Source of the DNA: Candidatus Parcubacteria bacterium
GTDB lineage: Bacteria; Patescibacteriota; Minisyncoccia; UBA6257; HR35
Direction: 5' to 3'
Length of the DNA stretch: 64,000 nt
Assembly (NCBI GenBank): GCA_026004535.1
Contig: BPJI01000001.1
Span: 233,491 to 297,490, forward strand
Shown: positions 515 to 60,225 of the stretch, piece after piece
Layout: every line of letters begins with the position of its first letter
Numbering within the stretch: position 1 is the stretch's first letter
Position numbers and translations under genes: made by a program
The notes under the pieces: generated by a model
Told to the model about the DNA's origin: nothing
Database searches by the model: none
Seen by the model: only the letters and a program-made list of their open reading frames with translations

Positions 515-775
515 ATATAATTTACTACCCGGATTATAACCGGATATAATTACCCGGATTTAAATCAGATAGAGCTACCTGGATATAAACCGGATAATAC
601 TACCCGGATTTTTGCCGGATAAATTAGCCGGATGCAAACCGAATACAATTACCCGTATATAATCCGGATTTATCCGGTAATCATCCGGGTAAAATAATCC
701 GCTATTTATCCGGGTATATATATTTAATCCGGTGTTTATCCGGGTAGATATAATCCGGTGATCATCCGTGTAAAA
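515..775. repeat. CCGGAT-family palindromic tandem array (forward TACCCGGAT copies then reverse ATCCGGGTA copies, ~11-bp phase)
   Basis: Direct reading: about 11 forward copies (515-650) followed by about 9 reverse-complement copies (655-775). Intergenic between nifS-like and htrA-like genes. Confidence 0.9.
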
Positions 776-2612: not shown

Positions 2613-2702
2613 ACGCAAACAGATGCGAACTATACGCTAACTTAATACGAACAATATCATTGTTCGCGTCAATTCGCGTCAAGTTCGCGTTAATTTCGCG
2701 AT
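2613..2702. repeat. GCGAAC/TTCGCG-family palindromic tandem array
   Basis: Forward copies acgcaaac/atgcgaac/tacgaac, centre aatatcattg, then reverse gttcgcgt x4. The right arm overlaps the last 8 codons of gatA. Confidence 0.85.
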
Positions 2703-4073
2703 CTCAATTTCTTTTAAAAATTTAAATAAGCTTTCTTCTTCAAATAAATTACCAATAATTTGAGCACCAACAGGCAAATTATTAACCCAACCAATATTAA
2801 AAGCTAAAGCTGGTAAATAGGCTAAATTAATTGGTACAGTAAAAATGTCTGATAAATACATTGACAGCGGATCAGTTGTTTTTTCGCCTAATTTAAATGG
2901 TAAAGTTGGCGAAGTCGGCATTAAAATTAAATCTACTTCTTTAAATGCTTTTTGGAAATCTTCATAAATAAATTTTCTTGTTTTTAAGGCTTTTAAGTAG
3001 TAAGCTTCATAATAACCATGGGATAGGACAAAAGTGCCTAATAAAATTCTTCTTTTAACTTCCTGACCAAAACCAAGCTCTCTTGAGTTCAAATATTTTT
3101 CTAAAAGATGATCGGTTTCATAACTTAGACCATAACGAATGCCATCATAACGAGCTAAGTTTGAACTTACTTCAGCAGTCATAATTAAATAATAAGTTGG
3201 TAGAGCATAGGGGAGAGATGGTAAAGATATTTTTTTAATTTCAAATTTTTCTTTTATTTTTTCTAAAAAATTTTCAAAAACATCTTTAACTTCTTTTTCA
3301 AGACCTAAACTAAAAACTTCTTCAGGAACACCTATTTTTCTAATTTCTTTTATTTTTTCAACATAATTTTGTGAAGTACTATCTAATTCATCCTTACCGC
3401 GGGTAATTCTAAAAACTAAAATTAAATCATCCAAATCTTTAGCTAATGGTCCAATTTGATCCAAAGAAGAGGCCATAGCAATTAAACCATATCGAGAAAT
3501 AGCTGAATAAGTTGGTTTTAAGCCATAAATACCGCAAAAACCAGCTGGTTGTCTAATTGAACCACCAGTATCAGAGCCTAAGGCAATTGGTACTAAACCA
3601 GCACCAACAACTGCGGCCGAACCTCCGGATGACCCCCCAGGAACTCTCGTTTGATCAAAAGGATTTAGGGTTTGAAAAAAAGCAGAATTTTCAGTTGAAG
3701 AACCCATAGCAAATTCATCTAAATTTGTTTTGCCAACAATAATTGCACCTGATTGTTTTAGTTTTTTAATCACAGTTGCATCATAAACAGCAGTATAATT
3801 TTCTAAAATTTTAGAACCAGCAGTACATTTTATACCCTCAACTAAAATATTATCTTTAATCGCAATCGGAATTCCCCACAATGGCAAATTTCTATCTTTA
3901 TTTTTTAATTCTTTAATAGTTTTATAAGCTAATTCTTCATTCAAAAACAAAAAACCTTTAATTTTTTTATCTTCCTCTTTTAAAAACTCAAAATAATGAT
4001 GATAAAAATCTTCCAGATCTGTTTCAGTTAAAATGTTCCTGATATCTTTAATTGTTAAATTTTTAAAGTTCAT
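2679..4073 (-). CDS. gatA: Glu-tRNA(Gln)/Asp-tRNA(Asn) amidotransferase subunit A
   Basis: Amidase signature GGSSGGSAAVV, Ser-cisSer-Lys context, length 464 aa. Confidence 0.85.
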   Translation of the reverse strand: MNFKNLTIKDIRNILTETDLEDFYHHYFEFLKEEDKKIKGFLFLNEELAYKTIKELKNKDRNLPLWGIPIAIKDNILVEGIKCTAGSKILENYTAVYDATVIKKLKQSGAIIVGKTNLDEFAMGSSTENSAFFQTLNPFDQTRVPGGSSGGSAAVVGAGLVPIALGSDTGGSIRQPAGFCGIYGLKPTYSAISRYGLIAMASSLDQIGPLAKDLDDLILVFRITRGKDELDSTSQNYVEKIKEIRKIGVPEEVFSLGLEKEVKDVFENFLEKIKEKFEIKKISLPSLPYALPTYYLIMTAEVSSNLARYDGIRYGLSYETDHLLEKYLNSRELGFGQEVKRRILLGTFVLSHGYYEAYYLKALKTRKFIYEDFQKAFKEVDLILMPTSPTLPFKLGEKTTDPLSMYLSDIFTVPINLAYLPALAFNIGWVNNLPVGAQIIGNLFEEESLFKFLKEIEIAKLTRT

Positions 4074-5906: not shown

Positions 5907-7790
5907 ATGAGAGAAAAAATAAGAAATTTTGCCATAATTGCTCATATTGATCATGGTAAATCAACTTTAGCTGATAGATTTTTGGAAATTACTGGAACTG
6001 TAAGTAAAGATAAATTAGTGCCTCAATATTTAGATAGACTTTCTTTGGAAAGGGAAAAGGGAATAACAATAAAGATGCAGCCAGTAACAATGGAATATCA
6101 AGGCTATATTTTGAATTTAATTGATACTCCTGGTCATATTGATTTTAATTATGAAGTTTCAAGAGCCTTAGCCGCAGTTGAAGGAGTAATTTTACTCATT
6201 GATGGAACTCAAGGTGTTCAAGCCCAGACAATTCATAATTTAGAATTAGCAAAAAAACAAAATTTAGTTATTATTCCTGCGATTAATAAAATTGATTTAG
6301 AAATTCACAATTTAGATGATCTACTTGAAGATATTTATAGATTAACAGGCGAAAGAGAGGTATATTTAATTTCGGCTAAATTAGGAACAGGAGCCGAGGA
6401 ATTATTAAAAGCAGTAATTGAAAAAATTCCTTTCCCAAACGGTTGTGAAAATTACCCAGATATAAACCAGATAAAATTACCCGGATATAAACCAGATAAA
6501 ATTAGTTATCAGGGCGATAATATATCCGGTTCTCATCCGGGTAATACATCCGGTCAACATCTGGGTAATATAGCAGGCAAAGCATTAGTTTTTGATTCTC
6601 ATTTTGATTCTTATAAAGGAATAATTGCCCATGTTAGAATTTTTGAGGGTGAATTTAGAAAATTTCAGGAAGCTTATCTAAGGCAAGCAAAATATAAATT
6701 TAAGATTCTAGAAGTTGGAATTTTTAAACCAGAACTCGAAGAAAAGGAAAAATTAGAATCAGGAATGATTGGTTATCTGGCTACTGGGATTAAAGATCCG
6801 GGAATTTTAAAAATTGGTGAGACAATAACTTTTGATTTAGATACCGAACCACTTTCTGGTTATCAGGAACCAAAACCAGTTGTTTTTGCTTCTGTTTTCC
6901 CTTCAACTAATATTAGTTTTGAAAATTTTGAAAATAGTTTAAAGAAATTTCAATTACAAGATCCTTCAATCTATTTAGAAAAGACAAACTCGCCATTTTT
7001 GGGCAAAGGCTATAATGTTGGAGCAATGGGGCTACTTCATTTAGAAATTTTTGAACAAAGATTAAAAAGAGAATTCCAAACTGATATTATTTTAACTTTA
7101 CCTTCAATTAGATATAAAGCAGTTTTAAAAAATAATCAAGAAGTTTTTATTATTAATCCAAATGAAATTGATTTAGCCCAAGTTTTATATTTTGAAGAAC
7201 CATTTATTGAAGTTGAAATATTTACGCCAATAACTTACAGTGAAAATATTTTTAGTTTAATTAGAAATTCAAGAGGAATAATAAAAAATCAAGTAGTTGA
7301 AGGAAGTTTTTTAAAAATTGTTACTGAAATGCCCTTAGAGGAATTAATTTCGGGATTTTATGATGAATTAAAATCAGTTTCTTCTGGTTATGCTTCATTA
7401 AGATGGCAATTTTTGGATTACCGAAAATCTGATTTAGTTAAATTAGATATTTTAATTGCTGAACAAACGGAGTCAAGCCTTTCAAGGATTATTCATCGAG
7501 ATAAGGCTGAAAAAATTGGCAGAAAAATTCTTTTAGAATTAAAAGAAAATTTGCCCCGAGAAGAATTTGCGATTAAATTACAAGCAGCAATTAATAATCG
7601 AATCATTGCCCGAGAAACTATTCCTGCTTTAAGAAAGGATGTTGCTGGTTGGCTTTACGGTGGTGATCGAACAAGAAAAATGAAATTATGGCAAAAACAA
7701 AAAGAAGGTAAGAAAAAATTACAAGAATTAGGCAAGGGTAAAGTAAAAATTCCTAATGATGTTTTATTAAAAATTTTAAAAGTTCGATGA
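5907..7790 (+). CDS. lepA: translation elongation factor 4 (LepA) carrying a ~40-aa in-frame repeat-derived insertion
   Basis: GTPase motifs AHIDHGKST, DTPGH, NKID. LepA C-terminal domain present. Residues ~185-228 are encoded by a CCGGAT-family array. Confidence 0.9.
   Translation: MREKIRNFAIIAHIDHGKSTLADRFLEITGTVSKDKLVPQYLDRLSLEREKGITIKMQPVTMEYQGYILNLIDTPGHIDFNYEVSRALAAVEGVILLIDGTQGVQAQTIHNLELAKKQNLVIIPAINKIDLEIHNLDDLLEDIYRLTGEREVYLISAKLGTGAEELLKAVIEKIPFPNGCENYPDINQIKLPGYKPDKISYQGDNISGSHPGNTSGQHLGNIAGKALVFDSHFDSYKGIIAHVRIFEGEFRKFQEAYLRQAKYKFKILEVGIFKPELEEKEKLESGMIGYLATGIKDPGILKIGETITFDLDTEPLSGYQEPKPVVFASVFPSTNISFENFENSLKKFQLQDPSIYLEKTNSPFLGKGYNVGAMGLLHLEIFEQRLKREFQTDIILTLPSIRYKAVLKNNQEVFIINPNEIDLAQVLYFEEPFIEVEIFTPITYSENIFSLIRNSRGIIKNQVVEGSFLKIVTEMPLEELISGFYDELKSVSSGYASLRWQFLDYRKSDLVKLDILIAEQTESSLSRIIHRDKAEKIGRKILLELKENLPREEFAIKLQAAINNRIIARETIPALRKDVAGWLYGGDRTRKMKLWQKQKEGKKKLQELGKGKVKIPNDVLLKILKVR
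6450..6580. repeat. CCGGAT-family palindromic array embedded in-frame in lepA
   Basis: attacccagat/attacccggat forward copies then atccggttct/atccgggtaat/atccggtcaa reverse copies. No stop codon in the lepA frame. Confidence 0.85.
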
Positions 7791-8866
7791 AGCTTTTAAT
7801 CCAAAAAGTAAAAGATGTAAGAATAGATGATAAAGATTACCCGGATAAGGACCAGATAGAGTCACCCGGATTTAAACCGGATATGATTAACTACCCGGAT
7901 AATAACCGGATAGAACTATCCGGATTTGAACCGGATAAAGTTAATCATCTACAAGATGAGAAACAAATAAAACTAATTTTGAGTGATTTAACAAATAAAA
8001 TCATAGGTATTTTATTTAAAGTACATAATATATTAGGTCCAAGCTTTAAAGAAGTACAATATAAAAAAGCAATAGAGGACGTTCTATTAAAGGAAAACAT
8101 AGATTTCAAAAAAGAAATCTCTGTCCATATAGATTTTAAATCATTTAAATTAAAAGATTTAAGAATTGATTTTATCATCGAAAATAAATTAATATTGGAA
8201 GTCAAGTCTAAGCCGTTTCTTACAAAAGAAGATATGAGACAAACTTTAAGATATTTAAAAGTTACAGATCTACCCCTAGCCATATTAGTCAATTTCAGAA
8301 GAAAAAAGTTAGAATACAAAAGAATAATAAATCCTGAAGTAATAGATAAATATAGCCCATCCGGTGAAAATCAGGGTAACCAATCTGGTAAACATCCGGG
8401 TAATAACATATCCGGTAATCATCCGGGTAATATATCCGGTTTTCATCCGTGTAATAACATATCCGGTTCTCATCCGGGTAAAATATCCGATAAATATCCG
8501 GGTAATAATTTATTATTAATTTATGTTGGGATTGAAAAAGGAGATGAAAATAAAAATTTAGAAGAAATTGTTAATTATTTAGAAAATTTACAAATTATTG
8601 ATGAAAATGGTAAATTTGCAAAAACAATGAAAGAAACAAAGCCTGTTTTTGTTTTTATTTCTAATATAACTTTATTAGCTGGGTTTGAAAAGGGAAGAAT
8701 AAATTTTAATCGAGCTTTAGAACCAAAATTAGCCAAAGAAATTTTCAAAAAATTAATCCAGGTTTTTAAAAATAAAGGTTATCAAGTTTTTTCTAAAGAA
8801 TTCGGCAGTTATTTAGAGATTACCTCCACTAATGTTGGTCCAATAAACTTTTATCTTCAAATTTAA
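7787..8866 (+). CDS. dtd: D-aminoacyl-tRNA deacylase reading frame interrupted in-frame by a ~670-bp composite element (fusion protein or inactivated gene)
   Basis: N-terminal MKLLIQKVKDV and C-terminal LLLIYVGIEKGDE..SNITLLAG..NVGPINFYLQI match Dtd motifs (MIALIQRV / LLVLLGVEKDD / SQFTLAAD / NDGPVTFWLQV). The 224 codons between them are repeat + GxxExxY module. ATGA overlap with lepA stop. Confidence 0.6.
   Translation: MKLLIQKVKDVRIDDKDYPDKDQIESPGFKPDMINYPDNNRIELSGFEPDKVNHLQDEKQIKLILSDLTNKIIGILFKVHNILGPSFKEVQYKKAIEDVLLKENIDFKKEISVHIDFKSFKLKDLRIDFIIENKLILEVKSKPFLTKEDMRQTLRYLKVTDLPLAILVNFRRKKLEYKRIINPEVIDKYSPSGENQGNQSGKHPGNNISGNHPGNISGFHPCNNISGSHPGKISDKYPGNNLLLIYVGIEKGDENKNLEEIVNYLENLQIIDENGKFAKTMKETKPVFVFISNITLLAGFEKGRINFNRALEPKLAKEIFKKLIQVFKNKGYQVFSKEFGSYLEITSTNVGPINFYLQI
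7838..8509 (+). mobile_element. composite element: forward CCGGAT array (7838-7948) + GxxExxY PD-(D/E)xK nuclease module (7949-8353) + reverse CCGGAT array (8354-8509)
   Basis: Terminal arrays are reverse complements of each other and belong to the same family as the cargo-less arrays elsewhere in the window. The whole element is stop-free in the dtd frame. Confidence 0.55.
7949..8353 (+). other. GxxExxY-family PD-(D/E)xK nuclease-like domain (no own ATG; in-frame with dtd)
   Basis: LTNKIIGILFKVHNILGPSFKEVQYKKAIEDVL..RIDFIIENKLILEVKSK..LRYLKVTDLPLAILVNFRRKKLEYKRII matches the GxxExxY consensus (E.LT..IIG..vH..LGpG.lEsvYe.AL..EL; D..v.....vELK; llnYlk.tg...gllINF). Confidence 0.65.
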
Positions 8867-16803: not shown

Positions 16804-16824
16804 TTTTTTAAATTTTTATCGTTT

Positions 16825-18244: not shown

Positions 18245-18276
18245 CCCGAACCCTATGTGGTTTGGGGTTTTTGATG
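18245..18276 (+). terminator. hairpin + U-tract upstream of radical SAM gene (terminator/attenuator-like)
   Basis: CCCGAACC-ctatgt-GGTTTGGG followed by GTTTTTGATG. Confidence 0.3.
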
Positions 18277-18314
18277 TATTAAAGTAGAAATCTAAAAGAA
18301 AGGAGGTGAGAAAG

Positions 18315-22177: not shown

Positions 22178-23447
22178 ATTTCTATTTGTTCTTTTGGATA
22201 TTTTTTTGTTCTTTTTAGCTTTAAATTTGGCTTTAGCTTTTCGTTTTGGCCTGAATTATTCAATTTATCTTCAGGAACATATTTTGCCATTTTTATTTTT
22301 GCTGCCGTTCTATGTTTTTCTTTTATTTACTTTTAATCTTTATGATTTCTATTTATTAAATTTGAAAATTTTATTACAAAGAATTTTTTATTTTTTTCTT
22401 TTGGCTTTAATTTTAAGCGTTATTTATTTTTACTTTGGGCAAACAATTTTTAAAATATCTCCTAAAACCAACCTTTTAATTTTTCTTTTTTCCTTTCTTT
22501 TGCTTTTATTTATCTCTCGTCATTTAATTTTAAAGATCTTCCAAAAAAGAAAAATTACTGTTTATTTTTTGGGCGATGAAAATTTGAAAAATAAACTAGA
22601 GACTGATTTAAAAAATCACCCCTTTTTTATTTTTAAAGAAATATCGGGACATAATATGCCCCGAATATTAAAGGGCGAAAATAATTCTTATGTTATCTTA
22701 GTAATTGCTCCTCATTATCACTTAAAACCAAACGATTTTCAAGAGATTTTAAAGGAAGAAATAACAATTTTTGATTTTGTTGATTTTTATGAGAAATTTT
22801 TAGGCAGAATTCCCCTAGAGGCAATTGACAGTGATTGGTTAATTAGAGAAATAGCTAGTGGTAAATCAAACTTTTATTTTTATTTTAAAAGAGGAATTGA
22901 TGTTATTGTTTCTGTCTTTTTGTTATTATTTTTATTTTTACCTTTATTTTTACCAATTGCTTTTTTAATTTATCTTTCTGATCCTGGACCAATATTTTTT
23001 ACTCAGCCCCGAGTTGGTTATAAAAGACAAATTTTTAAATTGATAAAATTTAGAACAATGAGACAAGAAAAGGAAGAACATGGTAAATGGGCTGTTGGTA
23101 GTGAAGAGAAGAGAATTTTCTTTATTGGTAAAATTTTAAGAAAGACTCATTTAGACGAACTACCTCAAATATTTAATATTCTTAAAGGAGAACTAACTTT
23201 AGTTGGGCCAAGACCAGAACAACCAAAAATTTTCGAGGATTTAGAAAAAGAAATTCCTTTCTATGAGCTGAGGGCCTTAGTTTTGCCTGGTTTTACTGGC
23301 TGGGCTCAGGTTAATTATAAATATCCAGAAAACATTGAGGAAACAAAAATCAAACTTGAATACGATCTTTATTACTTGAAAAACAATAATTTATTTTTAG
23401 ATTTTTTGATTATAATTAAAACATTCCATAAGTTATTGACATTTTAA
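22152..23447 (+). CDS. polyprenyl-phosphate glycosyl-1-phosphate transferase (bacterial sugar transferase, WbaP/WcaJ-like)
   Basis: Four N-terminal TM helices. C-terminal sugar-transferase domain with KFRTM and ELPQIFNILKGELTLVGPRP. Confidence 0.75.
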   Translation: MKKEISLIKFLFVLLDIFLFFLALNLALAFRFGLNYSIYLQEHILPFLFLLPFYVFLLFTFNLYDFYLLNLKILLQRIFYFFLLALILSVIYFYFGQTIFKISPKTNLLIFLFSFLLLLFISRHLILKIFQKRKITVYFLGDENLKNKLETDLKNHPFFIFKEISGHNMPRILKGENNSYVILVIAPHYHLKPNDFQEILKEEITIFDFVDFYEKFLGRIPLEAIDSDWLIREIASGKSNFYFYFKRGIDVIVSVFLLLFLFLPLFLPIAFLIYLSDPGPIFFTQPRVGYKRQIFKLIKFRTMRQEKEEHGKWAVGSEEKRIFFIGKILRKTHLDELPQIFNILKGELTLVGPRPEQPKIFEDLEKEIPFYELRALVLPGFTGWAQVNYKYPENIEETKIKLEYDLYYLKNNNLFLDFLIIIKTFHKLLTF

Positions 23448-23505
23448 AAATTTTAAGGTAAAATTAGTTTAAAGGTCGTCATTTTATTTTTAATTAATTT
23501 TTAAA

Positions 23506-24702
23506 ATGGCAGCAAAATTTGAAAGAACAAAACCACATATCAATGTCGGTACTATTGGTCATGTTGATCATGGTAAAACAACCTTAACTTCGGCAATTAC
23601 TCATGTTCTAAAACTTAAAGGTTTGGTCGAAAGAGAATTAGCCTATGAAGAAATTGATAAAGCGCCAGAAGAAAAATCTAGAGGTTTGACTATTAACATT
23701 CACCACTGCGAATACGAGACAGAAAAAAGACATTATGCTCACATTGATGCTCCTGGGCATGTTGACTATGTCAAAAATATGATTGTTGGTGCGGCACAAA
23801 TGGATGGGGCAATTTTGGTCGTTGCCGCTAATGATGGTGTAATGGCTCAAACAAGAGAGCACATTTTATTAGCTCGTCAAGTTAACGTTCCAGCCATCGT
23901 TGTTTTTATTAATAAAGTTGACATGGTACCTGATAAAGAATTGATTGATTTAGTTGAAGAAGATGTAAGAGCTGAATTAAAAAAGCATGGCTATCCAGGA
24001 GATGAAATACCGGTTATTCGTGGTTCAGCTTTAAAAGCTGTAGAGGCAAAATCATTAGACGATCCTTGGGCAAAGCCAATCTTAGAACTTCTAGATACTT
24101 TAGATAATTATATTCCTGAACCAGTTCGTGATGTTGATAAGCCATTTTTGATGCCAATTGAGGATGTTTTCTCAATTGAGGGTCGGGGTACAGTTGTTAC
24201 TGGTAGAGTTGAAAGAGGAAAAATTAAAGTTAATGATGAAGTTGAAATTGTTGGTTTAAAACATGAACCAATAAAAACAGTTGTTACAGGTATTCAAATG
24301 TTTCACAAGGATATGGACGAAGCAATTCCTGGTGATAATGTTGGTTTACTTTTAAGAGGTGTTAAAAAAGAAGATGTTGAAAGAGGAATGGTTGTGGCTA
24401 AACCAGGTACAATTACTCCTCATACTGATTTTGAAGCCGAAGTTTATGTTCTCAAAGCCGAAGAAGGTGGAAGACACACACCATTTCATACTGGATATAA
24501 ACCTCAATTTTATATTCGAACGACAGACGTTACTGGTGAAGTTACTTTACCTGAAGGCATTGAGGCAGTAATGCCAGGTGATAATGCTAAAATGATTGTT
24601 AAGTTAATTTATCCTGTTGCCTTAGAAGAAGGTTCAAGATTTGCTATTCGTGAAGGTGGAAGAACAGTTGGTGCTGGAGTTGTAACTAAAATTTTGAAAT
24701 AA
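23506..24702 (+). CDS. tuf: elongation factor Tu
   Basis: [19 protein letters not shown] motifs. 398 aa. Immediately precedes rpsJ. Confidence 0.95.
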
Positions 24703-25028
24703 TGGTAAAAACAAAACAGTCTGAACAACAAATTGTTAGATTAAGATTTAGATCTTATGATCACAATTTACTTGATAAATCATTAAAGCAGATTGTTGAT
24801 TTATTACAGAAAGAGGGAATAGAAGTTAGAGGTCCAATACCATTGCCGACCGAAATTAAAAAATATACTGTTAATCGTTCGCCCTTTATCTATAAAAAAA
24901 GTATGGAGCAATTTGAAATGAGAATCCACAAAAGAATTTTAGATATTCTTAATCCTTCGCCAAGAATTTTAGAATTATTTAACTCTCTTGATTTACCAGC
25001 AGGTGTAGAGGTGGAGATAAAAGTGTAA
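24702..25028 (+). CDS. rpsJ: 30S ribosomal protein S10
   Basis: IRLRFRSYDHNLLDKS..RGPIPLPT S10 consensus. Confidence 0.9.
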   Translation: MVKTKQSEQQIVRLRFRSYDHNLLDKSLKQIVDLLQKEGIEVRGPIPLPTEIKKYTVNRSPFIYKKSMEQFEMRIHKRILDILNPSPRILELFNSLDLPAGVEVEIKV

Positions 25029-25032
25029 AATA

Positions 25033-25215
25033 GATTACCCGGATAAATACCGGATAGATTACCCGGATAACTAACCGGATTATTTTACCCGGATGATTAC
25101 CGGATAAATCCGGTTTATATCCGGTCTAAATCCGGGTAGTTGTATACGGTTTAAATCCGGGTAAATTCATCCGGGTGTACATCCGGGTAGTTCTATCCGG
25201 CTTATATCCGGGTAA
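25033..25215. repeat. CCGGAT-family palindromic array between rpsJ and rplC
   Basis: 7 forward TACCCGGAT/ACCGGAT copies then 8 reverse ATCCGG(G)T copies. Fills a 198-bp gap inside the S10 operon. Confidence 0.9.
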
Positions 25216-25226
25216 GCAGCTATTAG

Positions 25227-25871
25227 ATGGAAAATTTAAGGCCAAAATTTTTGTTAGCCAGAAAAATTGGGATGACGCAAATTTTTAAGAATGATAAGAC
25301 TTTACCAGTTACTGTTTTAGAGGCTTTACCAGCTGAAGTTATTAGGATTAAAGAAAAAAATAAAGATGGCTACGATGCTCTTATTTTAAAAATTGATAAT
25401 AAATTAAAAGAATTTAGGTTTGAAGGAGAGGCACCATTTAAAATTGGAGAAAAGATCGATGCTTCAATTTTTAATGTTGGGGAAATAGTTAATGTTAGAA
25501 GTCGAAGAAAAGCTAAGGGATTTGCCGGAGTTGTTAAAAGACATGGTTTTGCTGGTGGACCAAGAACTCATGGTCAAAAGGACAGAGAAAGAGCGCCAGG
25601 TTCAATTGGCCAAAGATGGCCACAAAGAGTGAGAAAAGGATTAAAGATGGCCGGAAGAATCTCTCCTATTTATGTAACAGTTAAAAATCTAGAAATTATT
25701 GATGTTTTACCGGAAAAAAATTTAATTTTAGTTAAGGGTTCTGTTCCAGGGCCAAATAAAAGATTAGTTGAATTAAGGAGTGCTTTTTTGGCAAATAAAG
25801 GTAGAATTTATTTAAATAAAGAATTAACTAAAAAGCTGAAAAGTTTAGAAACTGAAAAAGTTGTTCAATAA
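25227..25871 (+). CDS. rplC: 50S ribosomal protein L3
   Basis: KIGMTQIF start, L3 length and motifs. Confidence 0.9.
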   Translation: MENLRPKFLLARKIGMTQIFKNDKTLPVTVLEALPAEVIRIKEKNKDGYDALILKIDNKLKEFRFEGEAPFKIGEKIDASIFNVGEIVNVRSRRKAKGFAGVVKRHGFAGGPRTHGQKDRERAPGSIGQRWPQRVRKGLKMAGRISPIYVTVKNLEIIDVLPEKNLILVKGSVPGPNKRLVELRSAFLANKGRIYLNKELTKKLKSLETEKVVQ

Positions 25872-26515
25872 TGAAAACCTACTTATACAATTTTCAAGGC
25901 GAAAAGATTGGTGAGATAGAATTTCCAGAAATTTTTAATCTTGAATTTAATCCAGCTTTAGTTCATCAAGTAATGAGATGGCAGATGTTAAATAATTACC
26001 ATCCTTATGCTCACACAAAAACAAGGGGAGAGGTAAGAGGTGGTGGTCGAAAACCTTGGCCACAAAAAGGAACAGGCAGAGCTAGACATGGTTCGATTAG
26101 ATCTCCTATTTGGAAAGGAGGTGGTGTTGTTTTTGGCCCAAGAAAAGAAAAAATAAGACAAATTAAAGTTAATAAAAAAATGAAAAAAAAGGCAATTTTA
26201 ATGACAATTGCCGAAAAATTGAGACAAAATTTAATTAGAGTTATTGATAAATTAGAGCCAAAAGAATATAAAACAAAAGAATTTGAAAAATTTTTCAGTA
26301 AATTTTTACAGCCAAGAAAAACAAAAAAGAAAAAAGAAACTGCCTTATTAGTAATTGAAAATGATAAAAAAGAAATTTATCGAAGCATTCGTAATCTTCC
26401 TTATGCTGATGCTATTTCTGCTCGCAATTTAAACCTTTTAGAACTTTTAAATCATAAATATTTATTTTTAACCAAAGATTCCTTAACCGAACTTTACAAA
26501 AGATTTTCGGTGTAA
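25871..26515 (+). CDS. rplD: 50S ribosomal protein L4
   Basis: Position after rplC. L4-like GGGRKPW..KGTGRAR motif. Confidence 0.85.
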   Translation: MKTYLYNFQGEKIGEIEFPEIFNLEFNPALVHQVMRWQMLNNYHPYAHTKTRGEVRGGGRKPWPQKGTGRARHGSIRSPIWKGGGVVFGPRKEKIRQIKVNKKMKKKAILMTIAEKLRQNLIRVIDKLEPKEYKTKEFEKFFSKFLQPRKTKKKKETALLVIENDKKEIYRSIRNLPYADAISARNLNLLELLNHKYLFLTKDSLTELYKRFSV

Positions 26516-27154
26516 AGAAGATAAGCCATATTTTTTTATTAATTGATAATGTTTTTTTGTACCATAGCCTTTGTGAATCTCAAATAAATATTTTGGAAAT
26601 TTTTGAGCAATTTTTTTCATATAATCATCTCTGTGGGTTTTGGCCAAGATTGAAGCTCCGCCTAAGGAAGCTAATCTTCTATCTCCCTTAATGAAAAAAT
26701 AGATATTTTTATAATTCAATTCTTTAATTGCTTTACCATCTAAAACAATTGCTTCAGGCTTAAAATAACCAATAATTTTTTTGACTCCATAAACGAATGC
26801 CTGATTAATGCCAATTTTGTCTATTTTTTTATTACTAATTGAAACAATTTTATACTTTAAGCCATTTTTTTTAATTATTTTTCTTAGAATTTCTCTTTCT
26901 TCAGGTTTTAAAATTTTTGAATCAAAAAATAAAATTTTATTTTTTGTTAAAATTTTTAAAGAATCTTTATCTAAATAAAGACCAGCAACAGTTAATGGTC
27001 CAGCTAAAGCACCACGGCCAGCTTCGTCAATAGCAACTAAGCTTTTATGCTTTCTGATTAATTTTTTTTCCACTGACCAAAAATTTGACTTTAAATTTTT
27101 CTTAGATAAAATTTTTTTGAAATGGAATTTGTCCATCTTCATGTCCATTCTCAT
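26483..27154 (-). CDS. rnhB: ribonuclease HII
   Basis: AIDEAGRGALAGPL catalytic motif. True start probably internal Met (overlaps rplD end and dnaE start). Confidence 0.8.
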   Translation of the reverse strand: MRMDMKMDKFHFKKILSKKNLKSNFWSVEKKLIRKHKSLVAIDEAGRGALAGPLTVAGLYLDKDSLKILTKNKILFFDSKILKPEEREILRKIIKKNGLKYKIVSISNKKIDKIGINQAFVYGVKKIIGYFKPEAIVLDGKAIKELNYKNIYFFIKGDRRLASLGGASILAKTHRDDYMKKIAQKFPKYLFEIHKGYGTKKHYQLIKKYGLSSLHRKSFVKFG

Positions 27155-30100: not shown

Positions 30101-30247
30101 AAAATCGAAGTTATGCTTTTTCCTAAGGTTTATGAAAATTATTTTGAAATTTTAAAGGAAGGTAAAATTTATTTTTTAGTTGGTACAGTTCAAAAAAGAG
30201 AAAGTAAAAATATTGTTGTCGCTGATTTAATTACCGAAATTAAATAA
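27122..30247 (+). CDS. dnaE: DNA polymerase III alpha subunit
   Basis: PHP domain HLHVHSHYSLLDG, polymerase core motifs, OB-fold C-terminus. 1041 aa. Confidence 0.9.
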   Translation: MEFVHLHVHSHYSLLDGMSKIDDLLKRALELNFKALALTDHGTLAGAIEFYKKAKKIGIKPIIGCEVYLAPRTRFDKTAKIDSKNYHLTLLAQNEKGYKNLLKLVTKAWLEGFYYKPRIDKELLKQYSQGLICLSGCPSSEISKALLSNNYELAKKLAFEYLEIFGKDNFYLEVDYHPKIEDSSKLKPLLIKLAEETKIPLVVTYDSHYPYSEDASIHDVFLAIQTGKDLDEEERLTMRQDDFSLASAEIIYGLNKDIPQAIKNTLEVAEKCNLEIELGKLKLPKYPIDENEMIYLRKLCEVGISKRNLNKDEIKDRLDYELRIIEQTGFAGYFLIVQDIVNFAKENNLAVGPGRGSVGGSLVAYLLGITEINPLRYGLLFERFLNPERYEFPDIDIDFSDVKRDLIFDYIRQKYGQDRFAQIITFGKMASRAAVRDAGRALGFSFSFVDRLARLIPANLSLEEAEKLIDVQKIIKENKDYQKIIDSAKRLEGTIRHASVHACGTVITPGPITDFLPLQFAPGKEKVIISQYDMYSVQEIGLLKMDFLGLRTLSIIETTQGLIKERHNQEIIFSDKFDDRETFEILRQGKTIGIFQLEGRGMTECLKRLKPEKLEDIAVMVALFRPGPIELIPSFIRRRFGKEEINYLHPKLEPILKETYGIMVYQEQLMKIAQELGGYSLIEADVLRKAVGKKIKSLLDEEIKKLFERMVKNGINREIAEKICKLIEPFARYGFNKSHAVAYAILAYYTAYLKAHFPIEFLTACLIHEGKDIDRVKIYLQDFKNHGIEVLPPDINESNFHFTIIDERRVRFGLGSIKNIGAPLVYAIEEERKKNGPFLSLADFLNRVRHKDLNKKSLESFIKAGVFDRFYPRSTLINNFDYILDYSQKSKNFSERKSLFGATNNDLYLKPGKNIDELEILKWEKELLGIYLSGHPYKKYAPKLNGKAKNIRDVLKLEDGFKVSLAGVLNELKRVLTKNKEPFAYLEIEDLTDKIEVMLFPKVYENYFEILKEGKIYFLVGTVQKRESKNIVVADLITEIK

Positions 30248-30250
30248 GAA

Positions 30251-30371
30251 ACAGAACTTACTGAACTGATGCAGAACTGACGGAATTTTTCTGCGAGTTC
30301 TGTGTGAGTTCAGTAATTTCCGCGGTAGTATTTTTCTGTAAGTTCTATGTTCGTTCCGTAAGTTCTGCGTA
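30251..30371. repeat. CAGAAC/GTTCTG-family palindromic tandem array
   Basis: acagaact/actgaact/gcagaact/gacggaat then gagttctg/gagttcag/aagttcta/aagttctg. Lies between dnaE and ligT-like gene. Confidence 0.85.
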
Positions 30372-30378
30372 CTTGAAA

Positions 30379-30930
30379 ATGAAATTAAGATTGTTTATTG
30401 CCCTATCTTTAACCAAAGGATTAATAAAGAAAATTAATTTTTTAGAAGAAGAGATTGAGACAAGGACCAAAATAAAATTTCCCTGGATTCCCGTTAAAAA
30501 TTTGCATTTAACAATTGTTTTTTTGGGTTATTTAAATTATGAAGACTTTATAAAATTAAGAGATATTTTCCAAAATTTTAATTGGCGAAAAAGGATTGAG
30601 GCTAAAATTAAGAAAATTGATTATGGTCCACCAGGACATAAAAGAATGATTTGGCTCTACTTAGAGAAGAATAAAGATTTGGAAGAATTAAAAAATTTAA
30701 TTGAAGAAAATTTAAATCAAACACAAATTTTTTATCATCGAGAGGAAAGAGAATTTTTGCCTCATATAAATTTAGCTAGATTAAAAAACATTAAAGACTT
30801 ACCAGAAATTAAAAAAGAATTAAATTGGCAGATAGTTTTTAATGAATTAGTCTTGTATGAATCAATTCTTAAACCAACTGGAGCTCTTTATGAAAAGCTT
30901 TTAAGATTGGATCTAAATTTCCATTCATAA
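30379..30930 (+). CDS. 2H-phosphoesterase (LigT/ThpR-like RNA 2',3'-cyclic phosphodiesterase)
   Basis: Two H-x-T/S-x motifs: HLTIVFLG and HINLARL. The ORF-track start at 30304 runs into the repeat; the Met at 30379 is more likely. Confidence 0.6.
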
Positions 30931-31610: not shown

Positions 31611-31646
31611 ATACTAAAAAAGTATGTTATAATTAGAACACGAATC

Positions 31647-31859
31647 CTATTTTTTGTTTTTCTTTTTTTCTTGTCTTTGTAAAAATTTTTCAACCCTACC
31701 CATAACTTTTTTAGTTTCTTCTTTACCAGTAAAAACCGGAGAACAATTGCGACAAATTTCTACAAAAATTTCTTTTTTCGTTGCTGGAATTTCATATTCA
31801 GCACCACAAGCGCATTTTATCTTAGCTAAAAAATATTGGGGATGAATTTTGTTTTTCAT
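31647..31859 (-). CDS. rpmE: 50S ribosomal protein L31
   Basis: [10 protein letters not shown]...CxCG...[10 protein letters not shown]31 zinc-ribbon consensus. The ORF-track N-terminal 40 aa is upstream read-through. Confidence 0.8.
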
Positions 31860-31876
31860 AATATAATTATAACATA

Positions 31877-32593
31877 ATGGAAACACAAATCCAACAACAA
31901 GTTCAAGAGAGGATTTTTGGTGAAATGATGAAAGCTGGTGTTCATTATGGCCGAGCCAAAAGATACACTCATCCATCAATTAAAAATTTTCTTTTAAAGT
32001 CAAATAAGAATATTGAATTTTTTAACTTGAGATTAACTTTGCAAAAATTAAATGAGGTTAGTGATTATTTGAAACAGGCTTTGGCTGAAAATAAAAAAAT
32101 TTTATTTGTTGGTACGACTCCAGCAAGTCAAAACAAAATTCAAGAAATAGCTCAAGCTCTAAATCAGTATTATTTAAACTATAAATGGGTTGGTGGTTTT
32201 TTAACTAATTTTCAAACAATTAAAGCAAGGCTAATATATTTTAGAGAATTACTGAAAAAAGAAGAAAGTGGTGAAATTCAAAATTTGCCTCCAGCCCAAA
32301 GAGTGAAAATAGAAAAAGAACTTCAAAAATTAAAAAATCTTTATTCGGGAGTAGTTAATTTAGATTCTTTGCCCGATATTGTTTTTATTGTTAATTTGGC
32401 TTATAAACAACACAAAACAGCCAAAAGAGAAGCAATTAGAATGAAAATACCAATTATTGCTTTAGCTGGTTCAGATAATGATGTAAGTAATGTTTTTTTA
32501 TTTGTCCCTGGTAATGACAAAGCACCAAGAAGCATTGCTTGGCAACTAGATTATCTTTTGTCGAAAGTAAAAACACAGAATATACAGAACTAA
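31877..32593 (+). CDS. rpsB: 30S ribosomal protein S2
   Basis: MKAGVHYGRAKRYTHPSIKNF..IFNL..T S2 N-terminal consensus. 238 aa. Confidence 0.85.
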   Translation: METQIQQQVQERIFGEMMKAGVHYGRAKRYTHPSIKNFLLKSNKNIEFFNLRLTLQKLNEVSDYLKQALAENKKILFVGTTPASQNKIQEIAQALNQYYLNYKWVGGFLTNFQTIKARLIYFRELLKKEESGEIQNLPPAQRVKIEKELQKLKNLYSGVVNLDSLPDIVFIVNLAYKQHKTAKREAIRMKIPIIALAGSDNDVSNVFLFVPGNDKAPRSIAWQLDYLLSKVKTQNIQN

Positions 32594-32697
32594 CATAGAA
32601 CTCACAGAAAAATTCCGTCAGTTATGCTTCAGTTCTGTATAGTTCTACATCTAAAAAAATTCAGTAAGTTCAACGTCAGTTCAGTTAGTTCTGTATA
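32583..32697. repeat. CAGAAC/GTTCTG-family array (mixed orientation) overlapping last codons of rpsB
   Basis: tacagaact/catagaact ... cagttctgta/tagttctaca/cagttcagt/tagttctgtat. Confidence 0.8.
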
Positions 32698-32708
32698 AAA
32701 TATAAAAA

Positions 32709-33762: not shown

Positions 33763-33766
33763 CAAG

Positions 33767-50337: not shown

Positions 50338-50465
50338 ACCTAATTAACTCGAATTTATTTGTATATATTCGTGTATATTCATTATATAAAAATATTCGAA
50401 TAAATTCGCGTATATTCGTAATATAAAAAAATTCGTATATATGCGTTATAAATTCGAATCAATAT
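50338..50465. repeat. ATTCG/GCGAAT-family tandem array (mostly one orientation)
   Basis: attcgtgta/attcgaata/attcgcgta/attcgtaat/attcgtata/tgcgttata/attcgaatc. Confidence 0.8.
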
Positions 50466-51719: not shown

Positions 51720-51824
51720 TCCCTCAGCTTCTCAGTTTCAAAGAAAATATCGGGGCATCGTATGTTCTCAATTTTTACTTTAGATAATATATAGTTTTCA
51801 TCATGGTATTAATATCCAGTACTA

Positions 51825-52005
51825 ATCCGGGTAGTATATCCGGTTTTCATCAGGATAATCTTATATACTTTCCATCATACTAATCTATCCGGTAATCATC
51901 CGGGTAATCTATCCGGTAATCATCCGGGTAATCTATCCGGTAATCATCCGGGTAACTATATCCGGTATTCATCCGGGTAGTATATCATGTTTCCATCAGG
52001 GTAAT
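51825..52005. repeat. CCGGAT-family array, reverse-orientation copies (3' module of pilin-LamG locus)
   Basis: tatccggtaatcatccgggtaatc x3 etc. Followed by ctact/agtag hairpin and ttttacgacctcgtacgtcgtaaag palindrome. Confidence 0.9.
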
Positions 52006-52102
52006 CTATAAATTTTTCATTTCTACTATCTAAATACGATCGTATTAAGTTAGGAGAAGTGAAATTTTACGACCTCGTACGTCGTAAAGTTAAAGTAAAA
52101 TA

Positions 52103-55608: not shown

Positions 55609-55636
55609 AACGCGGATAGCTGCAGAAAAATATTTT

Positions 55637-55885
55637 TACCCGGATATGAACCGGATAATACTACCCGGATATAGACCGGATAGAACTATCCGGATTATAA
55701 CCGGATAAGTTACTCGGATTTAAACCAGATTTATCCGGTAATCATCTGGGTAAAATAATCCGGTAGTTTATCCGGGTAATCTATCCGGTTGACTATCCGG
55801 GTAAATATTTTAATATCCGGTATTTATCCGGGTGAAATAATCCGGTAATCATCCGGGTAATTATATCCGGTAGATCATCAGGGTA
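55637..55885. repeat. CCGGAT-family palindromic array (forward 55637-55730, reverse 55735-55885)
   Basis: tacccggat x5 then atccggta/atccgggta x9. Lies between membrane-protein gene and rplU. Confidence 0.9.
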
Positions 55886-55923
55886 GTTAAAACATTTCAG
55901 TAGCTGTCTGCGCATTTAAAAAA

Positions 55924-60012: not shown

Positions 60013-60064
60013 CAATTTTTACTTTAGATAATATATAGTTTTCATCATGGTATTAATATCCAGT

Positions 60065-60225
60065 ACTAATCCGGGTAGTATATCCGGTTTTCATCAGGAT
60101 AATATTATATACTTTCCATCATGCTAATATATCCAGTATTCATCCGGGTAATCTATCCGGTAATAATCCGGGTAACTATATCCGGTAATAATCCGGGTAG
60201 TATATCATGTTTCTATCGGGATAAC
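60065..60225. repeat. CCGGAT-family array, reverse-orientation copies (3' module of pilin-LamG locus)
   Basis: tatccggtaataatccgggtaactatatccggtaataatccgggtagtat. Followed by ctact/agtag hairpin. Confidence 0.9.

What the first reader, a model, noticed from the sequence alone, without database searches (positions are those of the whole stretch)
25033..25215. Selfish arrays lodged inside the S10/spc ribosomal-protein operon
Ribosomal-protein genes in these operons normally abut or overlap. Here a 198-bp CCGGAT array separates rpsJ from rplC, and a 170-bp CACGGATA array separates rplV from rpsC (42311-42478). Both form long imperfect hairpins in the polycistronic mRNA. Their persistence suggests they are neutral or act as processing/attenuation sites.
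Basis: partly seen in the sequence, partly recalled or inferred. Interest (0 to 1): 0.5.

Follow-up and report, generated by a model that had tools for sequence, protein, structure and literature searches.

The report
Palindromic motif-array selfish elements in operon
The two repeat blocks inside this ribosomal-protein operon are real copies of a selfish palindromic DNA element that litters this tiny Parcubacteria genome, also sits in frame inside essential genes, and in its full form carries a small nuclease gene at its centre.

Summary
Both arrays exist as described. Array 1 (25033-25215) fills the 198-nt rpsJ-rplC spacer. Array 2 (42311-42480) starts inside the last codons of rplV and supplies its stop codon. 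Each has a left arm of ~12-nt units (CCGGAT or CACGGAT cores) and a right arm of their reverse complements. Predicted RNA hairpins are -95 and -55 kcal/mol (z -8.9, -6.6), and neither has a terminator tail.

They are not operon-specific. The 64-kb window holds about 14 such arrays of several motif families. One lies in frame inside lepA. One flanks a complete GxxExxY PD-(D/E)XK nuclease, all in frame inside dtd.

Relatives lack array 1 (32-62-nt spacer) and mostly have rplV overlapping rpsC. Array 2's site was hit in two separate lineages. Near-identical strains differ by whole arrays and by exact 24-nt units. Copies inside genes keep a 24-nt period and a hydrophilic frame; intergenic copies do not.

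Best reading: these are non-autonomous copies of a nuclease-associated palindromic-array mobile element, tolerated and co-transcribed here. The link to the nuclease as the mobilising enzyme is inferred. A processing or attenuation role is unsupported. I found no description of this element in the literature searched.

The parts
25033..25215 (.). Array 1: solo palindromic array of the CCGGAT family in the rpsJ-rplC spacer. Left arm about 25033-25105 (6 units), centre CCGGAT-aa-ATCCGG at 25100-25113, right arm to 25215 (8-9 units).
   Evidence: Absent from relatives L047 and L048-L057.
42311..42480 (.). Array 2: solo palindromic array of the CACGGAT/ATCCGTG family. It overlaps the 3' end of rplV, supplies codons DTTDKHG plus the stop, and ends 7 nt before the rpsC ATG.
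   Evidence: The ancestral state is TAATG overlap in L051-L056. An independent CGCGGAT-type array sits at the same site in L048.
24702..25028 (+). rpsJ (S10). Its start overlaps the tuf stop.
25227..25871 (+). rplC (L3). It is 100% identical to an NCBI protein of a 'Candidatus Parcubacteria bacterium' MAG on a 556,583-bp contig.
41987..42334 (+). rplV (L22), 115 aa against 109-110 aa in relatives. The C-terminus is rewritten by array 2.
42488..43174 (+). rpsC (S3).
7835..8512 (+). Composite (putatively autonomous) element in frame inside dtd (7787-8866). It consists of a left CCGGAT arm (7835-7940), a GxxExxY PD-(D/E)XK nuclease (7985-8329) and a right ATCCGG arm (8359-8512).
6448..6575 (+). 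Solo array in frame inside lepA (5907-7790). It adds about 40 aa (NYPDINQIKLPGYKPD...SGSHPGNTSGQHLGN) between the G domain and domain II.
   Evidence: an orthologous, diverged insert in L048; lepA in L027 and L042 has an empty site.
526..770 (.). Solo CCGGAT-family array, intergenic.
55610..55910 (.). CCGGAT-family array (55637-55885) nested inside a short outer ACGCGGAT...ATCTGCGC palindrome, upstream of rplU.
40027..40262 (.). One-armed (ATCCGG only) array after a pilin-like gene copy, just upstream of rplW at the break in the S10 operon.
51812..52010 (.). One-armed array after the second pilin-like copy, upstream of rplM-rpsI.
60028..60206 (.). One-armed array after the intact pilin-like gene (58779-59963), upstream of rpsL-rpsG-fusA.
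36252..36343 (.). Palindromic array of another motif family (CGAAT / ATTCG), between hisS and the HIT gene.
50356..50452 (.). CGAAT/ATTCG-family array, intergenic.
30250..30390 (.). CAGAACT / AGTTCTG-family palindromic array after dnaE.
32585..32700 (.). CAGAACT / AGTTCTG-family palindromic array between rpsB and tsf.
2620..2710 (.). CGCGAAC / GTTCGCG-family palindromic array at the 3' end of gatA.

Best explanation
Both arrays are 'solo' (ORF-less, non-autonomous) copies of a family of selfish palindromic-array elements that has colonised this Parcubacteria lineage.

Anatomy. An element has two arms. The left arm is a tandem run of ~12-nt units, paired into 24-nt double units, each with a G+C-rich core such as (C)CCGGAT and an A+T-rich spacer. 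The right arm is the same run in reverse complement. The arms usually meet head to head as CCGGAT-NN-ATCCGG. Full-length members carry a ~115-aa GxxExxY PD-(D/E)XK nuclease gene between the arms.

Proposed mechanism (inferred, not shown). The repeated cores are multiple binding sites for the cognate nuclease or mobilisation machinery, like the subterminal binding-site arrays of Mu, Tn7 or Ac/Ds ends. The nuclease makes breaks that are repaired by copying an element into a new or homologous site. This would be helped by DNA exchange between cells.

After insertion. Arms gain and lose whole 24-nt units by slippage or unequal recombination, and the cores slowly decay.

Which copies survive. Only harmless copies persist: those in intergenic spacers such as rpsJ-rplC, those at gene ends such as rplV-rpsC, and those in frame in surface loops, where one reading frame encodes Pro/Gly/Asn/Asp-rich linkers (PGYKPD..., SGNHPGN...).

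In the S10 operon. The two copies are simply co-transcribed and can fold into long imperfect hairpins. They lack a terminator tail and most likely have no dedicated function. Side effects on mRNA stability or translational coupling are possible.
For: Shown:
(1) Dispersed multi-copy family. The window has 8 CCGGAT-family elements and about 6 of other motif families. The same architecture occurs in 35+ low-GC metagenome contigs.
(2) Insertion polymorphism. Array 1 is absent in L047 (L3 87% identical) and in L048-L057. The dtd composite is absent in L048. The L048 4938-5054 array is absent in the 97-100% identical strain L049. The L038 nested arrays are absent in L043.
(3) The rplV/rpsC junction is filled in the window and in L048. 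L048 is 92-97% identical in protein to L051/L052, which keep the ancestral TAATG overlap, as do L055 and L056. This requires two insertions or a lateral transfer.
(4) Near-identical strains differ by exact 24- or 48-nt units.
(5) In 21 distinct arrays inside open frames the double-unit period is 24 nt in 89%, and all are read in the hydrophilic frame. In intergenic arrays the period is 24 nt in only 39% and a multiple of 3 in 41%. No obviously out-of-frame gene interruption was seen.
(6) Nuclease link. The arm-GxxExxY-arm structure lies in frame in dtd (window) and in enolase (L033, 59.5% identical nuclease, same junctions). Of the 150 best representatives among 5031 hits, 31 have the domain embedded in host proteins such as GatB, RecG, LepA, enolase, RecO, DHFR and transketolase, flanked by array-encoded peptides. 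Nuclease clade tracks the flanking motif family (nearest neighbour same family 18/21; 0/2000 permutations). Stand-alone GxxExxY genes are also flanked by inverted arrays. The catalytic D...E.K residues are invariant, and the model is a confident PD-(D/E)XK fold.
(7) Hairpin energy comes from motif content, not in-register arm pairing. About 95% is kept when units are shuffled within arms. This fits unit-wise recognition rather than selection on a specific stem.
Against: - No target-site duplication or clean element boundary was found at any empty-versus-filled pair.
- No transposase or second GxxExxY gene was found in the parts of the window scanned.
- Nuclease activity and binding to the cores are untested.
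- The nuclease-to-motif correlation could reflect common descent of composite elements rather than specificity.
- One composite (L033) keeps an intact CCAGAT-ct-ATCCGG centre beside the ORF, so a simple 'the ORF splits its own recognition site' homing model does not hold.
- Recurrent use of the same site (rplV/rpsC, GatB, RecG) could reflect selection on permissive sites rather than targeting.
- The exact CCGGAT pattern is absent from 185,579 species-representative genomes, so all comparative data for this motif family come from a handful of metagenomes.
- An RNA-level role in the operon cannot be excluded without transcript data.
Confidence: 0.62

Rival explanations
1. The arrays are host-beneficial RNA elements of the polycistronic mRNA. 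The long hairpins would act as RNase III processing sites, 3'-end stabilisers for the upstream cistron (as REP elements do in E. coli), or uncouplers or attenuators that set the rpsJ:rplC and rplV:rpsC expression ratios.
For: Strong predicted hairpins. Array 1 starts 4-5 nt after the rpsJ stop, and array 2 ends 7 nt before the rpsC start, positions where a stable stem could affect termination or initiation. The rplV/rpsC site is occupied in two lineages. Several other arrays in the window sit next to ribosomal-protein or translation genes.
Against: Array 1 is absent from every relative examined, and array 2 from five of six. The same elements sit in frame inside lepA, dtd and many other genes, where cleavage would destroy the mRNA. 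There is no T-tract terminator and no Rfam family. Stem stability does not depend on in-register pairing.
Confidence: 0.12
2. The arrays arise and grow in place, without transposition. A short motif-like seed in an A+T-rich spacer expands by replication slippage, and the inverted arm is created by intra-strand template switching. The shared motifs would reflect mutational bias or gene conversion between loci.
For: Arrays clearly expand and contract by whole units. The ancestral rplV/rpsC junction (TTAGATAAAAAA) resembles the unit flank GGATAAA. Spacers of relatives carry 7-nt direct repeats with copy-number variation. No target-site duplication was found.
Against: The same core, unit pair (ACCCGGAT / ACCGGAT), 24-nt period and 2-nt centre recur at more than 40 unrelated loci and in several organisms. 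Whole arrays of 120-200 nt appear between strains that are 97-100% identical in the flanks. One family nests inside another. A homologous nuclease gene sits between the arms in two unrelated host genes. Template switching predicts in-register complementary arms, which are only weakly seen.
Confidence: 0.1
3. The arrays are clustered binding sites for a host DNA-binding protein, for example a nucleoid organiser, a regulator of translation-related operons or a partition-like system. They would be maintained for chromosome biology.
For: Short conserved cores spaced about one helical turn apart with free spacers are typical of protein-binding arrays. Density is high, about 14 per 64 kb.
Against: Several unrelated core motifs coexist in one genome. 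Positions are not conserved between relatives. Old copies decay, as the lepA copies show. Copies occur inside coding sequence under translational rather than positional constraint.
Confidence: 0.07
4. Assembly or polishing artefact of a metagenome-assembled genome.
For: Repeats can be mis-assembled. The window contains three 98-100% identical repeat ends.
Against: Independent assemblies from different projects show the same architecture, orthologous copies and reading-frame conservation.
Confidence: 0.01

Closest known systems
Rickettsia palindromic elements (RPEs) and other MITEs that insert in frame (for example the Coxiella MITEs, PMC5896051; RPEs discussed in PMC1779305)
   Same: They are short (about 100-250 nt), palindromic and multi-copy selfish elements. 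They occur both between genes and in frame inside protein-coding genes, where they add tolerated peptide segments. How they move is unknown.
   Different: Here the element is not one conserved sequence. It is two inverted tandem arrays of 12/24-nt units whose number varies between strains. Several core-motif families coexist. A full-length form carries a nuclease gene. There is no sequence relationship to RPEs; this is my assessment from the motifs and was not tested against RPE models.
23S rRNA intervening sequences (IVS) carrying an S23p / 23S_rRNA_IVP ORF (Coxiella IVS, PMC4990558; such ORFs in CPR rRNA insertions, PMC11270868)
   Same: The element is selfish and has inverted flanks that form a long stem, with a small ORF in the loop. 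In L058 a 23S_rRNA_IVP gene is flanked by TCTCAAA/TTTGAGA inverted arrays beside an array-flanked GxxExxY gene. The architecture is therefore shared, with interchangeable cargo.
   Different: IVS sit in rRNA helices and are cut out by RNase III without religation. The elements here sit in mRNA spacers and, in frame, in coding sequence, where the evidence points to translation through them. RNase III processing is untested.
REP / BIME / REPIN elements mobilised by RAYT transposases
   Same: They are short, G+C-richer repeats clustered in inverted orientation in intergenic regions of operons. They form hairpins in mRNA and are thought to be spread by a single-copy cognate nuclease or transposase.
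   Different: A REP unit is itself a 20-40-nt imperfect palindrome with a GTAG-type tetranucleotide and is strictly extragenic. The enzyme is a HUH/Y1 transposase. Here the units are non-palindromic 12-mers in direct arrays, the copies enter genes, and the associated protein is a PD-(D/E)XK nuclease. No RAYT was seen in the parts of the window scanned.
Transposon ends built from multiple subterminal transposase-binding repeats (Mu, Tn7; plant Ac/Ds and En/Spm) and their MITE derivatives (own knowledge)
   Same: Both ends carry several copies of a short binding motif, in inverted orientation between the ends. The spacers are free to vary. Internal-deletion derivatives consist of little more than the two ends.
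   Different: No DDE, TnsA/B or hAT transposase is present and there is no target-site duplication. The arms vary by whole units. The candidate enzyme is only about 115 aa.
Inteins and other homing-endonuclease vehicles
   Same: A nuclease gene is embedded in frame in conserved sites of essential proteins (GatB, RecG, LepA, enolase, Dtd). It would be expressed through the host gene, and the same sites are occupied recurrently across lineages.
   Different: There is no Hint/splicing domain and no conserved junction nucleophiles. The flanks are array-encoded low-complexity linkers, so the insert presumably stays in the mature protein.

Membership tests
MITE (miniature inverted-repeat transposable element) | Small, non-coding, multi-copy element with terminal inverted repeats | tested here: met
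   Solo copies are 100-250 nt with no ORF. There are at least 8 CCGGAT-family copies in 64 kb, with the arms as inverted repeats.
MITE (miniature inverted-repeat transposable element) | Target-site duplication flanking the element | tested here: not met
   No duplication or clean boundary at four empty-versus-filled pairs: rpsJ-rplC, dtd, L048/L049 and L038/L043.
MITE (miniature inverted-repeat transposable element) | Derived from an autonomous IS that encodes a recognised transposase and has the same ends | tested here: inconclusive
   A longer form with the same arms exists, but its ORF is a GxxExxY PD-(D/E)XK nuclease, not a known transposase. No IS transposase was found in the window regions scanned.
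RPE-like in-frame palindromic elements | Palindromic repeat found in frame inside functional protein-coding genes as well as between genes | tested here: met
   lepA and dtd in the window. 21 distinct arrays lie in open frames with a 24-nt period and a hydrophilic frame.
RPE-like in-frame palindromic elements | Sequence homology to the described RPE families | not tested
   No RPE models were available. The unit-array structure makes homology unlikely (inference).
REP/BIME-RAYT system | The unit is itself an imperfect palindrome and is strictly extragenic | tested here: not met
   The units (tacCCGGATaaa) are not palindromic, and copies occur inside genes.
REP/BIME-RAYT system | A cognate RAYT (IS200/IS605-like Y1 transposase) gene in the genome | tested here: inconclusive
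   None among the window ORFs scanned. The rest of the 556-kb genome was not available.
23S rRNA IVS-type element | Inverted flanks forming a long stem around a small central ORF | tested here: met
   The dtd and enolase composites. The array-flanked GxxExxY and 23S_rRNA_IVP genes in L058 and L059.
23S rRNA IVS-type element | Located in an rRNA helix | tested here: not met
   There is no rRNA in the window. The copies lie in mRNA spacers and coding sequence.
23S rRNA IVS-type element | Excised from the transcript by RNase III | not testable with these tools
   This needs RNA end mapping or in-vitro cleavage.
GxxExxY / PDDEXK_3 nuclease family (the ORF of the composite copy) | Full-length match to TIGR04256 / PF13366 above the curated cut-off | tested here: met
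   98.5 bits against a cut-off of 35, covering profile positions 1-116 of 116. The homologues carry PF13366.
GxxExxY / PDDEXK_3 nuclease family (the ORF of the composite copy) | PD-(D/E)XK fold with D...E.K catalytic residues | tested here: met
Intein | Hint splicing domain with conserved junction residues | tested here: not met
   Only GxxExxY and Dtd profiles match the 359-aa ORF. The junctions are variable array-encoded peptides.
Intrinsic terminator / attenuator | G+C-rich stem followed by a T-tract on the transcribed strand | tested here: not met
   There is no + strand terminator-like site within 25029-25226 or 42311-42487.

The most novel reading that the evidence does not exclude
The arrays are the landing pads and remnants of a previously undescribed class of mobile element in CPR bacteria. 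In this reading a minimal PD-(D/E)XK (GxxExxY) nuclease is carried between two inverted binding-site arrays. It is expressed by being translated in frame as an inserted domain of essential host proteins (Dtd, enolase, GatB, RecG, LepA and others), with the arrays doubling as flexible peptide linkers. It would be an intein-like lifestyle without protein splicing. Each nuclease clade would recognise its own core motif, and 23S_rRNA_IVP genes would use the same vehicle.
Probability: 0.3. Interest if true: 0.85.

Novelty: new variant of a known kind. Interest (0 to 1): 0.62.

Why it matters
If the reading is right, ultra-small CPR genomes of about 0.55 Mb tolerate a remarkably dense load of selfish DNA: about 4% of this window. 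This DNA reaches even the most conserved operon and sits inside essential enzymes.

It would give the large, functionally unassigned GxxExxY/PDDEXK_3 family a concrete biological context: mobile, array-flanked and often embedded in host proteins. It would also link that family to the old puzzle of ORF-bearing rRNA intervening sequences.

There are practical consequences.
- Gene callers and MAG pipelines will mis-annotate such genes as fusions, 'hypothetical' ORFs or inflated ribosomal proteins.
- The unit-number variation offers natural strain markers.
- Cognate nuclease and motif pairs would be testable candidates for new sequence-specific DNA tools.

For the S10 operon itself the message is sobering. 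The arrays are most likely passengers, not regulators.

Tried and rejected
- Exact-product look-ups for rpsJ, tuf and the 100%-identical L3 found no contig, so the source genome beyond the window could not be read.
The viral-contig scan gave none.
- A protein search with an array-encoded peptide returned only 4 tiny hypothetical ORFs.
- A PDB sequence search with the nuclease gave nothing; the fold search was needed.
- Rfam gave only tRNA-Thr at gathering threshold, and sub-threshold miRNA-like hairpin noise in E-value mode.
- A search for target-site duplications and clean boundaries at four empty/filled pairs found none.
- The hypothesis that the ORF always splits a palindromic CCGGAT-NN-ATCCGG recognition site was rejected. 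21 of 36 solo centres have that form, but the L033 composite keeps an intact centre next to the ORF.
- The hypothesis that the arms are exact in-register inverted duplicates (recent template switching, or selection on a specific stem) was rejected. Unit shuffling keeps about 95% of the fold energy.
- The intrinsic-terminator reading was rejected.
- The intein reading was rejected.
- A Pfam scan of unassigned ORFs at 10.6-23.4 kb found no transposase. It found a two-component system, ThiF, a nitroreductase, a radical-SAM/SPASM protein and a sugar transferase.
- Eight literature searches found no description of these arrays or of GxxExxY domains embedded in host proteins. PDDEXK_3 is listed as function unknown in PMC3424549.
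Full report
**1. The observation**

The window is about 30% G+C. It carries tuf (23506-24702), rpsJ (24702-25028), rplC (25227-25871) and rplD. Further on it carries rplW, rplB, rpsS, rplV (41987-42334), rpsC (42488-43174) and the rest of the S10/spc genes.

The 198-nt rpsJ-rplC spacer is filled by six forward units (tacCCGGAT / taCCGGAT), followed directly by eight to nine reverse units (ATCCGGt / ATCCGGgta). TRF reports periods of 24-25 nt.

The second array (42311-42480) has CACGGAT/CACTGAT units and then ATCCGTG/ATCTGTG units. It begins inside rplV, so the last residues (DTTDKHG) and the stop codon of L22 are array-encoded.

CCGGAT occurs 103 times in the window against 9.8 +/- 3.3 expected. 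CACGGAT occurs 12 times against 1.5 expected.

As RNA the two spacers fold into long imperfect hairpins of -95.3 and -55.3 kcal/mol (z -8.9 and -6.6).

**2. The arrays are not special to the operon**

Nine clusters of CCGGAT/ATCCGG motifs lie in the window. Arrays with the same build but other cores are also present:
- CGAAT at 36252-36343 and 50356-50452
- CAGAACT at 30250-30390 and 32585-32700
- CGCGAAC at 2620-2710

That makes about 14 elements in 64 kb.

Two copies lie inside genes and keep the reading frame. lepA carries a ~40-aa insert (...NYPDINQIKLPGYKPD...SGSHPGNTSGQHLGN...). dtd is interrupted by a left arm, a complete GxxExxY protein and a right arm, all in one 359-codon frame. The GxxExxY part matches TIGR04256 at E 2.9e-28 over the full profile length.

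The organism is a 'Candidatus Parcubacteria bacterium' MAG: its L3 is 100% identical to an NCBI protein on a 556,583-bp contig.

**3. Distribution elsewhere**

A strict three-unit pattern found nothing relevant in 185,579 species-representative genomes and nothing in viral contigs. It did hit 41 metagenome loci. Most are 25-33% G+C contigs with the same forward-then-reverse architecture. The closest to the window is 75.6% identical in DNA over secA.

In these loci and the window, 31 of 56 arrays lie inside long open frames. Some of the 56 are orthologous or overlapping copies. The arrays inside frames always encode PG(L/F/Y)KPD-type and then SGNHPGN-type repeats.

A stricter, de-duplicated test gave 21 distinct arrays inside open frames. 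All are read in the hydrophilic frame. Their double-unit period is 24 nt in 89% of cases and a multiple of 3 in 94%. In the remaining arrays the period is 24 nt in 39% and 25 nt in 41%, and a multiple of 3 in only 41%.

The arrays not spanned by an open frame look ordinarily intergenic; none was an obvious out-of-frame gene interruption. Copies inside genes are therefore under translational constraint, which argues that they are translated rather than removed from the RNA. Array 1 has unit spacings of 11, 13, 12, 14, 11 | 11, 11 ... and shows no such constraint, as expected for a non-coding copy.

**4. Comparative evidence for gain and loss**

*Array 1.* A relative with 87% identical L3 (L047) has a 44-nt rpsJ-rplC spacer. 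Relatives at 64-78% identity (L048-L057) have spacers of 32-62 nt. Several of these are made of 7-nt direct repeats, and none has an inverted array. Array 1 is therefore a recent, lineage-specific insertion.

*Array 2.* In L051, L052, L055 and L056, rplV (109-110 aa) overlaps or abuts rpsC, with the ancestral junction ...TTAGATAAAAAATAATG.... Only the window and L048 carry an array there, at exactly the same point. L048 is 92-97% identical in L3, L22 and S3 to L051/L052 but only 77-82% identical to the window. Its array is of the CGCGGAT variety. This requires two insertions at the same site, or lateral transfer of the filled allele.

*Other sites.*
- The dtd composite is absent from L048, which has a 138-aa Dtd. 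The lepA insert is shared with L048 but has diverged, and it is absent from L027 and L042.
- A 117-nt array in L048 is missing from strain L049, whose flanks are 97-100% identical.
- In L038 a CCGGAT array nested inside a CGCGGAT array is absent from L043.
- Orthologous arrays in near-identical strains differ by exact 24- or 48-nt units.
- No target-site duplication or sharp boundary was visible at any of these sites.

**5. The nuclease connection**

The window's GxxExxY has a 59.5% identical homologue in L033. That copy is again flanked by CCGGAT-type arms, with similar junctions (...EYKRIINP(E/D)VID...), but it sits in frame inside an enolase gene.

An exhaustive HMMER search with the whole composite insert found 5031 hits at E <= 1e-3. 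Among the 150 best representatives, 31 have the domain embedded with more than 40 host residues on each side. The hosts include GatB, RecG, LepA, enolase, RecO, DHFR, transketolase, a P-type ATPase and asparagine synthase. Each embedded domain is flanked by peptides that are translations of other inverted arrays (TQINAD.../...LRKSA; NESRI.../...SFEEDS; and others).

The same sites in GatB and RecG recur across proteins that belong to different 50%-identity clusters.

Nuclease clades track the flanking motif family. Identity is 55-59% within a family and 35-47% between families. The nearest neighbour has the same family in 18 of 21 cases, matched by 0 of 2000 permutations.

Stand-alone GxxExxY genes (L058, L059) are also flanked at DNA level by short inverted arrays. 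In L058 a neighbouring 23S_rRNA_IVP gene is flanked by TCTCAAA/TTTGAGA arrays.

**6. Structure of the arrays**

In 21 of 36 distinct arrays the arms meet as CCGGAT-NN-ATCCGG. Larger gaps contain degenerate units.

Shuffling units within each arm keeps about 95% of the predicted fold energy (z between -0.2 and -2.1, negative in all nine arrays tested). Hairpin potential therefore comes from motif content in inverted orientation, not from in-register pairing of the arms. This fits recognition of individual units, such as binding sites, better than selection for a particular stem or recent template switching.

Neither S10 array contains a + strand terminator-like site or matches any Rfam family.

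**7. Interpretation**

The best-supported reading is that arrays 1 and 2 are solo, non-autonomous copies of a palindromic-array mobile element whose full-length members carry a GxxExxY nuclease.

Shown:
- multi-copy dispersal
- insertion/absence polymorphism
- unit-number instability
- nesting of one family inside another
- in-frame survival inside genes
- physical and phylogenetic association with the nuclease

Inferred:
- that the cores are binding sites
- that the nuclease drives spread by break-and-copy
- that the S10 copies are functionally neutral passengers

Rivals are an RNA processing or stability element, in-situ expansion, and a host protein-binding array. They are weaker mainly for two reasons. 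The arrays are not conserved at these sites. The identical elements also live inside coding sequences.

**8. Comparison with known systems**

The elements behave like Rickettsia RPEs and other in-frame MITEs. They are built like ORF-bearing rRNA intervening sequences (PMC4990558, PMC11270868). They resemble REP/RAYT systems and multi-site transposon ends in their logic.

They fail defining tests for each of these:
- no target-site duplication and no transposase (MITE)
- units that are not palindromic and not extragenic (REP)
- not in rRNA (IVS)
- no Hint domain (intein)

PDDEXK_3 is listed as function unknown in the superfamily survey PMC3424549. Eight full-text searches found no description of these arrays or of embedded GxxExxY domains. 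I therefore rate the finding a new variant of a known kind (selfish palindromic repeats). A more novel reading, an intein-like lifestyle without splicing, is not excluded.

**9. Verdict**

The finding is real, and the 'selfish' label is right. The 'persistence' and 'processing site' parts are not supported. The interest lies less in the operon than in the element family it exposes.

Noticed in passing
window 25871-40433: The S10 operon is split. rplD is followed by about 14 kb of unrelated genes (rnhB, dnaE, a LigT-like gene, prfB, rpmE, rpsB, tsf, signal peptidase, hisS, HIT, rpsU, an FtsA-like gene, a pilin-like pseudogene) before rplW. In all relatives examined (L048, L051-L056) rplD and rplW are adjacent. 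A terminator-like hairpin (40342-40366) and a promoter-like site (40379-40407, TG-extended) precede rplW.
   Followed up: partly
window 38724-40340, 50522-52062, 58764-60282: There are three copies of a type-IV-pilin-like / LamG-type gene. Their 5' ~615 nt and 3' ~500 nt (including a one-armed ATCCGG array) are nearly identical, but the central ~500 nt are completely different. Only the third copy (58779-59963, 394 aa) is an intact ORF. Each copy sits just upstream of a ribosomal-protein operon (rplW..., rplM-rpsI, rpsL-rpsG-fusA). This looks like a cassette-type variable surface-protein family and a possible substrate for the rearrangements.
   Followed up: partly
P0133, P0135, P0142, P0280 (GatB); P0164, P0195, P0215, P0225, P0276 (RecG): GxxExxY elements of different motif families occupy the same position in GatB (between ...EANISL and LGTKVEVKN...) and in RecG (between DEQHRFGV.QR and LSMSATPIPRT). 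The proteins are from different 50%-identity clusters. This points to site-specific homing or to very few permissive sites.
   Followed up: partly
L058 1892-2260: A 23S_rRNA_IVP (four-helix-bundle 'S23p') gene outside any rRNA is flanked by TCTCAAA / TTTGAGA inverted arrays, next to an array-flanked GxxExxY gene. The architecture is the same with a different cargo.
   Followed up: partly
L047 849-892; L048 9958-10000; L051 4940-5000; L052 4958-5000: The rpsJ-rplC spacers of relatives consist of 7-nt direct repeats (ACTAGTA or TCTAATG). Copy number differs between L051 (61 nt) and L052 (43 nt), although their L3 proteins are identical. No Shine-Dalgarno-like sequence is visible before rplC in any of them.
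   Followed up: no
L051 / L052 6598-6712: The rplW-rplB spacer of these relatives holds yet another palindromic array (GAAGTGAGTAG...CTCATTTCTCATCACCC). S10 operons in this clade are therefore colonised repeatedly, at different junctions.
   Followed up: no
window 10646-19295: The region holds two stand-alone response-regulator receiver genes and a histidine kinase. They are followed by a nitroreductase-like gene, a ThiF-like gene, two ORFs with no family match, and a radical-SAM/SPASM gene in a locally G+C-richer stretch (38%). It may be a peptide-modification (RiPP-like) cluster.
   Followed up: no
window 40342-40366 and 52040-52170: There are G+C-rich palindromes of a different kind (TTACGACGTCGTACGTCGTAA; GACGTGCGACGTC ... 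GACGTCGCACGTC) downstream of the one-armed arrays. They are not built from tandem units.
   Followed up: no
L033 3200-3290: The same enolase gene that carries the GxxExxY composite has a second, small in-frame array of another family (...LTADERRYNADERGY..., cores CGCTGAT / CGCGGAT) about 30 codons downstream.
   Followed up: no
window 24700-24704: The tuf stop and the rpsJ start overlap (TAATG). tuf and rpsJ are therefore translationally coupled here, with a strong promoter-like site (TTGACA-17-TAAAAT) at 23436-23464 upstream of tuf.
   Followed up: no
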